This document shows positions 18,522 through 40,423 of a DNA stretch of 44,515 bases, one piece after another. The notes under the pieces were generated by a model, which saw nothing but the letters and a program-made list of their open reading frames with translations, did no database searches and was not told the DNA's origin. The position numbers and the translations under genes are program-made. This DNA is from a virus. Position 1 is the stretch's first letter, and each line of letters starts with the position of its first letter. The DNA is taken from UHGV virus genome UHGV-1858859; one strand, given 5' to 3'.

Positions 18522-18892
18522 ACATAATTGCACCTATTGACATTATGAAAATCTTCGTTTAAGGTGCTTCTATATCTTAGTTACTTTGATTCCTGTTCAC
18601 CTTGTAAGAATGCTTAACCCGTGCGTTAAGCAAAGGGTTAAGCAGCAGGCTTACTGAACACGAGAATTATTGTAACTTTCCTTCCTAAGTATCTCCGGTT
18701 GCCCTGGGCAAGCTCTATTCTCATCGGCGGCATATCTCTTAAGTATCTGATTTTCTTAATGTGCCGTAGATTCGCAACCGTAAAAATGTAACGATTATTG
18801 GGCAGGCTTAGGGCCTGCCCTTTAGTTACCAAGTAATAAGAATAAAGGCACAACTCTACCTGAAGAATCACAACGGCAACGTAACTATTTTC

Positions 18893-18921
18893 TTGCACAC
18901 CCCAACATAATAGGATACTAT
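18893..18921 (+). promoter_or_regulatory. sigma70-like promoter TTGCAC-N17-TACTAT with embedded palindrome
   Basis: ttgcac accccaacataatagga tactat; motif ATAATAG-gata-CTATTCA at 18907-18924; a 36-bp block is repeated as an exact inverted copy at 40388-40423. Confidence 0.65.
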
Positions 18922-18946: not shown

Positions 18947-19147
18947 GTGAGGGTTATGTTTAAGAAGGGTCAGTTGGTGAAAACGATGTACGGTAGCTTA
19001 GGTATTATTGAAAAGAAATCGACAGTGTACCGAAGTTCTTATGTCGTTAGCTTACTCAGGGAGCACGGGTTAAGTTCCACGGCGTATTACCGAGAGTATG
19101 AAATGAAGCTCATCGGCAACAATTTTAAATTCAAAGGGGCGAAGTGA
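18947..19147 (+). CDS. hypothetical early protein
   Basis: First ORF downstream of the rightward promoter; start ambiguous (GTG 18947 or ATG 18956). Confidence 0.4.
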   Translation: MRVMFKKGQLVKTMYGSLGIIEKKSTVYRSSYVVSLLREHGLSSTAYYREYEMKLIGNNFKFKGAK

Positions 19148-19398
19148 TGGAAGAATTAATTTGTATTGAGTCTAAAGCAGAAATGGGCGGTTGGTTTATA
19201 AAAGGCAACGAGTATTCGTTGAAAGTACACTACGACGGTCGTCTCTACGTTTTAGACGAGGAAGGTGATGAGTGGGATTTAGAGCAATCACATGGTGAAG
19301 CCTTTACCGTGAATGCCCTGGGCACACCGGCGGTAACATTCAGAACGGCATCGAATCATGATGCTCGTGCCGACGACTCTGAGGGAGGTTGCCGTTAA
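19144..19398 (+). CDS. hypothetical early protein
   Basis: 84-aa ORF with ATGA overlap to the upstream gene. Confidence 0.45.
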   Translation: MMEELICIESKAEMGGWFIKGNEYSLKVHYDGRLYVLDEEGDEWDLEQSHGEAFTVNALGTPAVTFRTASNHDARADDSEGGCR

Positions 19399-19589
19399 TG
19401 AGAATTCGAATAATTGATGTCGATTATGTGCTGCCGCCGAGGTATGGTGACCATTCTTTGCGCCACTTTGGTGTTTCGATAGGCGATGAGTTTGATATTA
19501 CTTACCGCAACGACTACGGGTATCTTGTAGAAAAGGATGGTGAAGAACTGTTTATTCGTAACAGAGAGGCGGAGATTATCTATGAATAA
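19389..19589 (+). CDS. hypothetical early protein (paralog A)
   Basis: 66 aa, MPLMRIRIIDVDYV...GVSIGDEF...; overlaps the upstream gene. Confidence 0.45.
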   Translation: MPLMRIRIIDVDYVLPPRYGDHSLRHFGVSIGDEFDITYRNDYGYLVEKDGEELFIRNREAEIIYE

Positions 19590-19649
19590 TTACCCGTTCA
19601 TTTTAATCATCAGCGCCGTTTATGTGGCGCACGCGTTGCGGGGGTTGGT

Positions 19650-19805
19650 ATGAGAATCCGTATAACTGACCGCAGGCTTGTAGATTTCGGTATCTCGGTA
19701 GGTGATGTTTTTATGGCGTTCAGCAGCAACCATTATGGTTTTATGATTGAGTACAAAGGGTCGTTATTGTTCGTGTATCGGGATGAATGCGAGGTTCTGG
19801 TATGA
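19650..19805 (+). CDS. hypothetical early protein (paralog B)
   Basis: 51 aa, MRIRITDRRLVDFGISVGDVF...; same MRIRI...G(V/I)SVGD pattern as 19389-19589; below track cutoff. Confidence 0.35.
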   Translation: MRIRITDRRLVDFGISVGDVFMAFSSNHYGFMIEYKGSLLFVYRDECEVLV

Positions 19806-19963
19806 GAGAAGCATTCGAACGGTGGGCCGTCGTCGAGGGTCTGCCGGTTAACAAGGGGCCAAAGAAAGAGTACCTGAACGTTAAGACGCGTCTCGCGTGG
19901 CGGGCGTGGAAAGCTGGTGCGAATGTAATGGCTGGTGCATTCGAAAAGAGAGGTGATTTATGA
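19802..19963 (+). CDS. hypothetical early protein (53 aa)
   Basis: ATGA-coupled at both ends between neighbouring ORFs; below track cutoff. Confidence 0.3.
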   Translation: MREAFERWAVVEGLPVNKGPKKEYLNVKTRLAWRAWKAGANVMAGAFEKRGDL

Positions 19964-20160
19964 GCGAGTGGATTAAGTGTAGTGAGATGCTACCAGGTAA
20001 CGGAAGTACTGATAAAGAGTTCCTGGCGTATGAAACGTTGAATAACGCAGTTCAGCACGACTATTACATCGTTCCTGATGACGGGAGAAAGCCGTTCTGG
20101 AATCACTATGATAAGTACGTGACACACTGGATGCCGTTACCAGAGCCGCCAGAAGTGTGA
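19960..20160 (+). CDS. DUF551-like protein
   Basis: C-terminal VTHWMPLPEPPEV recalls the conserved DUF551 C-terminus (from memory). Confidence 0.5.
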   Translation: MSEWIKCSEMLPGNGSTDKEFLAYETLNNAVQHDYYIVPDDGRKPFWNHYDKYVTHWMPLPEPPEV

Positions 20161-20193
20161 TGTTCAATAGTTTGGGATTTTACTGAGTGACTT

Positions 20194-20226
20194 ACGCTGC
20201 TACACGGCAGCGTATCATTTTTCTCA
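20194..20226 (+). terminator. rho-independent terminator
   Basis: acgctgc-tacacg-gcagcgt hairpin followed by atcatttttctcattttt. Confidence 0.5.
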
Positions 20227-20462: not shown

Positions 20463-20491
20463 TTGCACACTTGGATAGAATAGGCTACTAT
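20463..20491 (+). promoter_or_regulatory. sigma70-like promoter TTGCAC-N17-TACTAT with motif copy
   Basis: ttgcac acttggatagaataggc tactat; CTATTCA at 20488-20494; followed by leader cgaacgagaggagagacagaag-ATG. Confidence 0.65.
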
Positions 20492-40161: not shown

Positions 40162-40353
40162 TCACTTCTCTTTGACATTCGAGTTGCACGCCCAGATTAA
40201 AATAAATACCCACGGCAGCAGAACCCAACCGAGAAACAGATTAGCCATGAATATCGCTAATTTAGCTTTATGGTTGCGCATATGCGCCACGAGAAATGGG
40301 ATAAAATAAACTAAAACGATAATGATTAAGAAGAACATAGTAATACCTGTCAT
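40162..40353 (-). CDS. superinfection-immunity-like small membrane protein
   Basis: YFIPFLVAHMRNHKAKLAIFMANLFLGWVLLPWVFILIWA resembles the Imm_superinfect family signature (from memory); AGGAG RBS. Confidence 0.5.
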   Translation of the reverse strand: MTGITMFFLIIIVLVYFIPFLVAHMRNHKAKLAIFMANLFLGWVLLPWVFILIWACNSNVKEK

Positions 40354-40394: not shown

Positions 40395-40423
40395 ATAGTA
40401 TCCTATTATGTTGGGGTGTGCAA
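40395..40423 (-). promoter_or_regulatory. sigma70-like promoter TTGCAC-N17-TACTAT, exact inverted copy of the 18893 promoter block
   Basis: Minus-strand reading cttgcacaccccaacataataggatactattcactt is identical over 36 nt to plus strand 18892-18927. Confidence 0.65.

What the first reader, a model, noticed from the sequence alone, without database searches (positions are those of the whole stretch)
19389..19805. Adjacent paralogous small early genes
The proteins from 19389-19589 (MPLMRIRIIDVDYV...HFGVSIGDEFDI...) and 19650-19805 (MRIRITDRRLVDFGISVGDVFMA...) share an N-terminal MRIRI...FG(V/I)S(I/V)GD pattern, consistent with tandem duplication and divergence. Early phage genes of this kind are frequent host-takeover or anti-defence candidates.
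Basis: seen in the sequence. Interest (0 to 1): 0.35.

Follow-up and report, generated by a model that had tools for sequence, protein, structure and literature searches.

The report
Two stacked alleles of phage mini-barrel gene
Two neighbouring tiny genes in this E. coli phage really are related and encode small SH3-like barrel proteins of unknown function, but they look like two alternative versions of one accessory gene joined by recombination, not a local duplication.

Summary
The 63-aa ORF (true start ATG 19398, not TTG 19389) and the 51-aa ORF (19650-19805) are homologous: BLASTP E=5e-11, and 0 of 20,000 shuffles reach the score. Both fold with high AlphaFold confidence (pLDDT 93 and 95) into a five-stranded SH3/Sm-like barrel.

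The window is a Kagunavirus, 98.7% identical to vB_VIPECOTPH05A. Most relatives carry only one family member in this slot. It is either the nearly invariant short "S" form or one of at least five divergent, strongly acidic long "L" forms.

The window's S has no synonymous difference from S genes of single-copy phages, whereas L versus S is saturated (pS 0.80). Two-copy genomes use two different junctions. In the window, L and S are joined through a conserved ~70-nt element that precedes various cassettes in other phages, and a 10-nt direct repeat brackets S.

"Tandem duplication and divergence" is therefore poorly supported. Recombinational stacking of two alleles in a cassette-shuffling region fits better.

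Function is unknown. The FeoA label used by one GenBank record is sub-threshold. Early expression is plausible, since the operon has a repeated promoter motif and a terminator, but it is untested. The finding is real but of ordinary interest.

The parts
18893..18921 (+). Promoter-like motif TTGCAC-N17-TACTAT, placed immediately upstream of the small-gene operon that contains L and S
   Evidence: The motif occurs 3 times in the window (18893+, 20463+, 40395-) against 0.01 expected. The sequence was read. It is below the generic sigma-70 scan threshold, so its function is inferred, not shown.
19147..19398 (+). Upstream gene (about 84 aa). Its conserved 3' end ...GAGGGAGGTTGCCGTTAATG forms the left border of the slot and supplies the ribosome-binding site for L
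   Evidence: ORF list. The 3' end is conserved across relatives and the product carries the conserved tail TASNHDARADDSEGGCR.
19398..19589 (+). L gene (allele class L1): 63 aa, net charge -6, SH3-like beta-barrel
   Evidence: phrog_10916 E=2.9e-12. AF2 pLDDT 93.4. Foldseek finds SH3 domains at TM about 0.6. Homologues.
19582..19653 (+). Conserved junction element of about 70 nt. It can be read as a 23-codon ORF, MNNYPFILIISAVYVAHALRGLV, whose start overlaps the L stop and whose stop overlaps the S start
   Evidence: 90% DNA identity across 11 copies that sit in three different upstream and five different downstream contexts. No significant RNA fold, z=-0.65. Coding status is inconclusive.
19646..19655 (+). 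Left copy of the 10-nt direct repeat TGGTATGAGA (ribosome-binding-site/start junction) that brackets S
   Evidence: Only two copies in the window, 0.03 expected.
19650..19805 (+). S gene (allele class S): 51 aa, net charge -1, the same barrel but without the 11-12-residue loop of L
   Evidence: phrog_30395 E=2.7e-39. AF2 pLDDT 95.2. Foldseek finds Hfq, SH3 and integrase C-terminal domain barrels, all E>0.1. Nearly invariant DNA across phages.
19798..19807 (+). Right copy of the 10-nt direct repeat TGGTATGAGA
19802..19963 (+). Downstream gene (53 aa, MREAFERW...), the right border of the slot in all relatives
   Evidence: phrog_15836 E=2.8e-30. Homologues at the same position carry precomputed PF26207 Phage_phiTE_015 hits. 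My own Pfam scan of the window protein gave no hit.
19960..20160 (+). DUF551 gene, the last gene of the operon
   Evidence: PF04448 E=1.4e-11
20193..20214 (+). Terminator-like hairpin followed by a T-run, closing the operon
   Evidence: The next copy of the promoter motif lies at 20463.

Best explanation
L (19398-19589) and S (19650-19805) are two divergent versions ('alleles') of one small accessory gene family. The family is found in Kagunavirus phages, and a relative occurs in E. coli prophages.

Each gene encodes a free-standing SH3/Sm-like five-stranded beta-barrel of 50-65 aa. The ends and core are conserved: MRIRIT, L..FG(V/I)SVGDEF, ECEVL. The loops are variable.

Normally one version sits in a fixed slot, in a short operon (promoter motif 18893, terminator 20193) beside the replication module. 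In the window's lineage, a phage carrying 'L1 - junction element - some other gene' recombined within the shared ~70-nt element with a phage carrying 'junction element - S'. That placed the two versions side by side. The cassettes in this region all meet at near-identical ribosome-binding-site/ATGAG joints, and these joints serve as the recombination points.

Inferred and not shown: the proteins are dispensable, host-directed binding modules. The acidic L forms and the near-neutral S form would recognise different partners, so carrying both broadens what the phage can handle.
For: Shown:
- Homology.
- Confident barrel models for both proteins, with SH3, Hfq and integrase C-terminal domain as nearest folds.
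- A single slot with identical flanks in single-copy phages.
- Allele classes S and L1-L5.
- Within-class omega of 0.07-0.3.
- Window S vs single-copy S: 98.7% nucleotide identity, 0/32.5 synonymous differences.
- Window L vs S: pS 0.80.
- Between the window and fEg-Eco19, L has pS 0.43, S has pS 0.00, and the downstream gene has pS 0.19.
- Two junction types exist: L1-element-S in the window and PQ429079, and L2-TATGAGA-S in fEg-Eco19 and BUCT825.
- L1-element is followed by unrelated genes in L021 and L022. The element precedes S, L2, L4 and other genes elsewhere.
- A 10-nt direct repeat brackets S.
- Operon signals.

Supporting the functional inference:
- L alleles have net charge -5 to -15, against -1 for S.
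- Variability is concentrated in loop columns.
- The gene shows presence/absence and copy-number polymorphism.
- In-frame 24-nt repeat expansion occurs in K1G-type S.
Against: - No experiment or characterised homologue ties the family to any partner or phenotype. All database names are 'hypothetical' except one sub-threshold 'FeoA' label.
- The direction of events cannot be strictly polarised. An old L-S pair with repeated loss through the same joints, plus a recent sweep of S, would give similar patterns.
- In both junction types L lies upstream of S, which a single old arrangement would also predict.
- Early timing is not demonstrated.
- The promoter motif is weak against the sigma-70 consensus.
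Confidence: 0.6

Rival explanations
1. In-situ tandem duplication of one gene in this lineage, followed by divergence of the two copies.
For: The copies are adjacent, on the same strand, and clearly homologous.
Against: - S is nearly identical in DNA to S of single-copy phages, yet saturated against L.
- L1 occurs without S in other phages, followed by the same element.
- Two different L-S junctions exist.
- Adjacent genes show synonymous divergence that differs at least 40-fold between the same two genomes.
Confidence: 0.07
2. An ancient L-S pair was ancestral to Kagunavirus. Most lineages lost one copy by recombination between the conserved 5' ends or ATGAG joints, and S was later homogenised by a horizontal sweep.
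For: - L is upstream of S in both two-copy configurations.
- Some single-copy S genes carry an L-like 5' end (ATGA[A/G]AATTCGAATAACTGA in L015 and L019), as expected from L/S 5'-end recombination.
- The direct repeats would allow precise loss.
Against: - It needs many independent losses plus a separate sweep of S.
- The two-copy genomes use different junctions and different L classes (L1 vs L2).
- Only 3 of about 63 records keep both copies.
Confidence: 0.18
3. The proteins are FeoA-family members that mimic host FeoA and act on the FeoB ferrous-iron transporter.
For: - One GenBank record calls the S homologue 'FeoA family protein'.
- L hits Pfam FeoA at E=0.015, and 5 of 24 members hit with best E=0.0012.
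- The alignment is topologically sensible.
- The FeoA-like domain of ScaR appears among the fold hits.
Against: - All scores are below the Pfam cut-off (15.8 vs 23 bits).
- S and most alleles give no hit.
- hhalign probability is 0.8%.
- No solved FeoA structure appears in the top 50 fold hits.
- There is no feoB linkage.
Confidence: 0.05
4. The proteins are nucleic-acid binders: an Sm/Hfq-like RNA chaperone, or an AbrB/MazE-like DNA-binding regulator.
For: - The S model's top PDB hits are Hfq proteins, TM about 0.55.
- The LGVSVGD motif resembles the GD-box of AbrB-type and double-psi barrels.
- One member hits MazE at E=0.12.
Against: - All hits are non-significant.
- L alleles are strongly acidic.
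- There is no N-terminal Sm helix and no Sm2 motif.
- AF2 predicts a closed monomeric barrel rather than a swapped-hairpin half.
Confidence: 0.06
5. The acidic L alleles are DNA mimics that block restriction enzymes or other DNA-binding defences.
For: Net charge is -5 to -15 over 63 residues, and the genes sit in a probable early operon.
Against: BASEL Kagunaviruses, including Bas71, Bas72 and Bas74 which carry L5 alleles, show high sensitivity to RM systems (PMC11990801). S is not acidic.
Confidence: 0.04

Closest known systems
PHROG families phrog_10916 and phrog_30395 (unknown function)
   Same: L and S are members of these families (E=2.9e-12 and 2.7e-39). The members are the same Kagunavirus genes.
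   Different: PHROGs keeps them as two separate families. Here they are shown to be one family with reciprocal cross-hits and one shared fold.
FeoA / DtxR C-terminal SH3-like domain (Pfam PF04023)
   Same: Both are small SH3-like barrels with a short helix followed by an L-x-x-x-G-hydrophobic-x-x-G motif before strand 2. There is a weak sequence resemblance.
   Different: The match is below the family threshold and absent for most alleles. There is no feoB or metal-regulator context. The family lacks the conserved APLGDP segment that is invariant in the four-sequence FeoA alignment built here.
T4 GoF / MotB.1 / Frd.2 family of LSm/SH3-like small early proteins (PMC12152347)
   Different: No sequence relationship was tested or seen. 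The T4 proteins are larger (N-terminal domains of 82-91 aa plus extensions) and come from a different phage group.
Mosaic accessory-gene regions of phages (nin-type regions of lambdoid phages; T4-type hyperplastic regions with mobile promoter/stem-loop cassettes), recalled from the literature and not tested here
   Same: Small dispensable genes are exchanged as cassettes at short conserved boundary sequences. An E. coli prophage relative of the family lies in just such a region, between a DUF551 protein and small terminase.
   Different: Here the joints are ribosome-binding-site/ATGAG junctions and a ~70-nt element. The element has no promoter match and no significant stem-loop.

Membership tests
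FeoA (Pfam PF04023) | Score at or above the Pfam gathering threshold (23 bits) | tested here: not met
   L scores 15.8 bits, E=0.015, and S has no hit. 5 of 24 members give sub-threshold hits, best E=0.0012. Divergent alleles score 12.5 bits or less.
FeoA (Pfam PF04023) | Profile-profile similarity to FeoA proteins | tested here: inconclusive
   hhalign of the family alignment against four FeoA sequences from the PDB gives probability 0.8%, E=0.069, 44 columns. The FeoA profile was shallow.
FeoA (Pfam PF04023) | Genomic association with feoB or fusion to a DtxR-type regulator | tested here: not met
   The neighbours are small phage ORFs, a DUF551 gene and the replication module.
SH3-like small beta-barrel fold | Five-stranded, strongly bent antiparallel barrel of about 50-65 residues | tested here: met
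   AF2 pLDDT is 93.4 and 95.2, with five strands each. Foldseek gives probability 0.96-1.0 to SH3 domains at TM 0.6-0.64, but E>=0.06.
Sm/Hfq | N-terminal alpha-helix followed by five strands, Sm1/Sm2 motifs, ring oligomer | tested here: not met
   The models start with a strand, not a helix. Hfq hits have TM about 0.55 and E>0.1. Oligomeric state could not be tested.
AbrB/MazE swapped-hairpin barrel | Pfam PF04014 match and a half-barrel monomer that needs a dimer to close | tested here: not met
   Only one member hits, at E=0.12. AF2 gives a closed monomeric barrel.
PHROG phrog_10916 / phrog_30395 | Significant HMM match | tested here: met
   E=2.9e-12 for L and E=2.7e-39 for S.
In-situ tandem gene duplication | The two copies in one genome are closer to each other than to copies in other genomes | tested here: not met
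   L vs S is 50% nucleotide identity with pS 0.80. S vs foreign single-copy S is 98.7% with pS 0.00. L vs foreign L1 is 94.7%.
In-situ tandem gene duplication | One shared duplication junction in all two-copy genomes | tested here: not met
   There are two junction types, one through the element and one through TATGAGA.
Early phage gene | Transcript peaks early after infection | not testable with these tools
   Only positional evidence is available. The Kagunavirus K1B4 time course names only the HTH gene among its 4 early genes.
Known anti-defence protein | Homology to a characterised inhibitor, or a demonstrated phenotype | not tested
   No anti-defence library was available. Pfam, NCBIfam, PDB and BFVD gave no characterised match.

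The most novel reading that the evidence does not exclude
L and S are specificity variants of a host-protein-binding mini-barrel, for example a counter-defence or takeover factor. Its loop sequences evolve in an arms race, and phages broaden their range by stacking alternative alleles through recombination at ribosome-binding-site/start-codon joints. The intervening 23-codon hydrophobic ORF is a real membrane micro-protein that sometimes fuses to the barrel and tethers it to the membrane.
Probability: 0.15. Interest if true: 0.55.

Novelty: new member of a known kind. Interest (0 to 1): 0.3.

Why it matters
The finding links two "unknown" PHROG families into one SH3-like barrel family. The family has a clear allelic series, a fixed genomic slot, and a relative in E. 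coli prophages and plasmids.

It gives a clean, small example of how phage accessory cassettes are exchanged and stacked at conserved translation-start joints.

Kagunaviruses are used as compact synthetic-biology and therapy chassis. Knowing that this slot is polymorphic and probably dispensable is practically useful, and the L/S series is a tractable test set for finding the host partner.

None of this overturns current understanding.

Tried and rejected
- **Distant homology searches.** The exhaustive profile search of 1.84 billion representatives found only 17 hits. The real ones are all tiny MRIRIT... proteins. Large repeat proteins (P0028, P0029, P0033, P0036-38) were judged spurious low-complexity matches after reading two of them, P0029 and P0038.
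- **PDB sequence search.** It gave only non-significant GD-box hits to designed double-psi barrels and VraS.
- **NCBIfam.** Nothing found.
- **FeoA membership.** Tested three ways and not established.
- **Junction element as a structured RNA.** The fold is no better than shuffles, z=-0.65.
- **Junction element as a coding ORF.** Variable sites fall about 8/3/6 on codon positions 1/2/3, by hand count on alignment A5. That is not a coding signature. It contrasts with the conserved start codon and ribosome-binding site in three contexts and with an in-frame 6-nt deletion, so the question is left open.
- **CR01's neighbouring 63-aa gene** looked like a possible second L copy, but the family HMM does not match it.
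- **The generic sigma-70 scan** missed the operon promoter. A phage-specific repeated motif was found instead.
- **The Kagunavirus RNA-seq paper** does not name the relevant genes.
- **One dN/dS comparison** (window L vs L022) was discarded because an indel misaligned the codons.

Full report
**What the window is.** The 1.4-kb region around the finding is 98.7% identical to Escherichia phage vB_VIPECOTPH05A and matches about 150 other Kagunavirus/Guernseyvirinae records. In that relative's annotation the region lies between the helicase-primase/HTH module, which is transcribed the other way, and a run of about 20 small ORFs that leads to the lysis genes.

**Checking the observation.** Both ORFs are present on the + strand.
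- BLASTP of the products gives 38% identity over 47 residues, E=5e-11.
- The local alignment score of 91 compares with 22.8 +/- 4.5 for 20,000 shuffles, and none reaches it.
- L belongs to phrog_10916 and S to phrog_30395, and each cross-hits the other's family.
- In alignment, L equals S plus an 11-12-residue insertion after MRIRI(T/I).
- The first gene most likely starts at ATG 19398 rather than TTG 19389. The upstream gene's stop overlaps that ATG, the GGAGG is 9 nt upstream of it, every homologue starts M(R/K)IRI, and the closest record annotates it that way.
- That same record leaves S unannotated.

**What the proteins look like.** With an 18-sequence alignment, AlphaFold2 gives pLDDT 93.4 for L and 95.2 for S. 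Each model has strand 1 (RIRI), a short helix just before FG(V/I)S(V/I)GD, and four further strands.
- Foldseek against the PDB returns eukaryotic SH3 domains for L (TM 0.60-0.64). For S it returns Hfq, retroviral integrase C-terminal domains and SH3 domains.
- All of these have E>=0.06, so only the general small-barrel class is established.
- Against predicted viral structures, only uncharacterised phage proteins match.
- Pfam gives a sub-threshold FeoA hit for L (15.8 bits vs cut-off 23) and nothing for S. Five of 24 family members hit FeoA, with best E=0.0012.
- hhalign against a small FeoA alignment gives a sensible register but 0.8% probability.
- The "FeoA family protein" label on the S homologue of phage G AB-2017 is therefore not established.
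- NCBIfam and PDB sequence searches add nothing.

**Distribution.**
- Single-sequence searches find only close relatives on contigs of about 40-45 kb.
- An exhaustive profile search of 1.84 billion representatives finds 17 hits. The credible ones are all 45-77-aa MRIRIT... proteins.
- A broadened profile finds 119 proteins.
- One of these is a 73-aa member in E. coli prophages. It lies between a DUF551-containing protein and small terminase, downstream of lambda-P/DnaT-type replication genes.
- That member is present in 29 of 5,426 complete E. coli genomes, 16 times on chromosomes and 13 times on plasmids. It is annotated "hypothetical protein" or left unannotated.

**One slot, many alleles.** I extracted the locus from 30-odd relatives and scanned all ORFs with a family HMM.
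- The family member always sits between the conserved tail of the upstream gene (...GAGGGAGGTTGCCGTTAATG) and the MREAFERW gene (ATGAGAGAAGC...).
- The classes are S (51 aa), L1 (window type, ...REAEIIYE), L2 (590B, fEg-Eco19, RP180), L3 (Sciku), L4 (fFiEco03, CR01) and L5 (Bas71, Bas74, SZH-1, ULINTec2, HSE2).
- The N-terminus MRIRIT(D), the L..(F/W)G(V/I)(S/A)VGDEF segment and the C-terminal ECEVLED are conserved. Variability concentrates in the loop after strand 1 and in the hairpin turns.
- L alleles are strongly acidic (net -5 to -15), while S is near neutral at -1.
- Within classes, omega is about 0.07-0.3, so these are real genes under purifying selection.

**Duplication or stacking?** Several lines of evidence bear on this.
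- Among GenBank phages, about 33 records carry an L-type gene and 34 an S-type gene. Only three distinct phages carry both: vB_VIPECOTPH05A, fEg-Eco19 and BUCT825.
- The window's S differs from S of single-copy phages L016 and L017 at 1.3% of nucleotides, with no synonymous change (0/32.5). Its L is 94.7% identical to L1 of L021. L versus S within the window is 50% identical with pS 0.80.
- Between the window and fEg-Eco19, which are both two-copy genomes, L has pS 0.43, S has pS 0.00 and the next gene has pS 0.19. Adjacent genes therefore have very different histories.
- The junctions differ. In fEg-Eco19 and BUCT825, L2 is joined to S at ...ACTAAGTTATGAGA|ATCC. This is the 7-nt TATGAGA shared by the normal L-to-next-gene joint and the S start.
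- In the window, L1 is joined to S through a ~70-nt element.
- In other phages that element follows L1 and precedes unrelated genes (L021, L022/23). It also follows the upstream gene and precedes a single S (L016, L017, L024), L2 (L008, L012), L4 (L037) or another gene (L039, L040). It is 90% conserved in DNA across these contexts.
- A crossover inside this shared element between an "L1-element-X" genome and an "element-S" genome yields exactly the window's arrangement.
- S is bracketed in the window by a perfect 10-nt direct repeat, TGGTATGAGA, found nowhere else in the window (0.03 expected).
- The cassettes in this stretch all begin ATGAG and end in a near-identical ribosome-binding-site segment.

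I conclude that the two genes are alleles stacked by recombination, not products of a local duplication. An old pair with repeated loss and a recent sweep of S cannot be fully excluded. In both junction types L is upstream of S, and some single-copy S genes carry an L-like 5' end.

**Expression context.**
- The motif TTGCAC-N17-TACTAT occurs three times in the window (0.01 expected). It lies at 18893 just before the operon, at 20463 after the terminator-like hairpin at 20193-20214, and at 40395 on the other strand before a small hydrophobic ORF and a 376-aa gene.
- L and S therefore lie in a compact operon, 18947-20160, with its own promoter-like and terminator-like signals.
- This fits early or middle expression, but I could not test it.
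- The only Kagunavirus time course I found lists 4 of 57 genes as early. It names only the divergently transcribed HTH gene, and it used a sparse annotation of this region (PMC12645636).

**Function.** Nothing characterised matches.
- My best inference is a dispensable protein-binding module. The barrel is small and stable, the core is conserved, the loops are variable, the alleles differ in charge, and the slot is polymorphic and recombination-prone.
- An anti-restriction DNA-mimic role for the acidic L alleles is disfavoured. BASEL Kagunaviruses, several of which carry L5 alleles, are highly sensitive to RM systems. Their sensitivity to Old varies, which is a lead (PMC11990801).
- The nearest published analogue in kind is the T4 GoF/MotB.1/Frd.2 set of LSm/SH3-like small proteins, whose roles are also unknown (PMC12152347).

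**Verdict.** The evolutionary interpretation is corrected to allele stacking. The functional interpretation is still open. This is a real but ordinary feature of a mosaic accessory region.

Noticed in passing
window 19582-19653: A conserved ~70-nt junction element can be read as a 23-codon hydrophobic ORF, MNNYPFILIISAVYVAHALRGLV. An ATG or GTG start plus a ribosome-binding site is present in three different upstream contexts, and the stop overlaps the next gene's ATG. One copy has an in-frame 6-nt deletion (L017). One copy has lost the stop (L012) and one has a +1 shift that fuses it to S (P0024/L024). The substitution pattern is not clearly coding, and the RNA fold is not significant.
   Followed up: partly
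window 19646-19655 and 19798-19807: A perfect 10-nt direct repeat, TGGTATGAGA, brackets the S gene. These are the only two copies in the window (0.03 expected). Both S and the micro-ORF end ...(L)V* with the same nucleotides.
   Followed up: yes
L006 1153-1226 (phage K1G); also L013 and L014 (K1H): The S gene carries a perfect in-frame 24-nt tandem repeat. There are 3.1 copies in K1G and K1H and about 2 in L013. The repeat gives MRIRITDRRLI(RITDRRLI)n at the N-terminus.
   Followed up: partly
window 18893-18921 (+), 20463-20491 (+), 40395-40423 (-): Three copies of TTGCAC-N17-TACTAT occur (0.01 expected). Two of them are identical over all 29 matched bases. Each sits ahead of a run of small genes, so this is probably a phage-specific promoter class. 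The generic sigma-70 scan missed it.
   Followed up: partly
L041-L044 6001-6222 (E. coli chromosomes); P0106: A 73-aa family member occurs in E. coli prophages, next to a DUF551-containing protein and upstream of small terminase. It is found in 29 of 5,426 complete E. coli genomes, and 13 of those copies are on plasmids, possibly phage-plasmids.
   Followed up: partly
P0122; L002 1917-2159 (phage G gene G_46); L024 1501-1734: Fusion and read-through variants occur at the cassette joints. P0122 is another cassette gene (MSPYN...) fused in frame to S. G_46 is annotated as starting inside a shortened copy of the junction element. P0024 is the micro-ORF fused to S.
   Followed up: no
window 19650-19805 vs PQ429079 6971-7123; K1G, K1H, K1ind2/3, HSE2: The S or L gene is not annotated in several GenBank relatives, including the nearest one. 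Neighbouring tiny ORFs carry implausible names in some records, such as valyl-tRNA synthetase, glycosyl hydrolase, dextransucrase and lactocepin.
   Followed up: no
window 19147-19398 and homologues: The upstream gene keeps a conserved C-terminal tail, TASNHDARADDSEGGCR, on quite different N-terminal bodies in different phages. This suggests another mosaic joint inside that gene.
   Followed up: no
window 18800-18820: A strong 9-bp GC-rich hairpin with a T-rich tail lies on the + strand in the divergent intergenic region, about 70 nt upstream of the operon promoter motif.
   Followed up: no
window 40162-40353 (-): A 63-aa ORF with a hydrophobic N-terminus (MTGITMFFLIIIVLVYFI...) lies directly downstream of the third promoter-motif copy and ahead of a 376-aa gene.
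   Followed up: no
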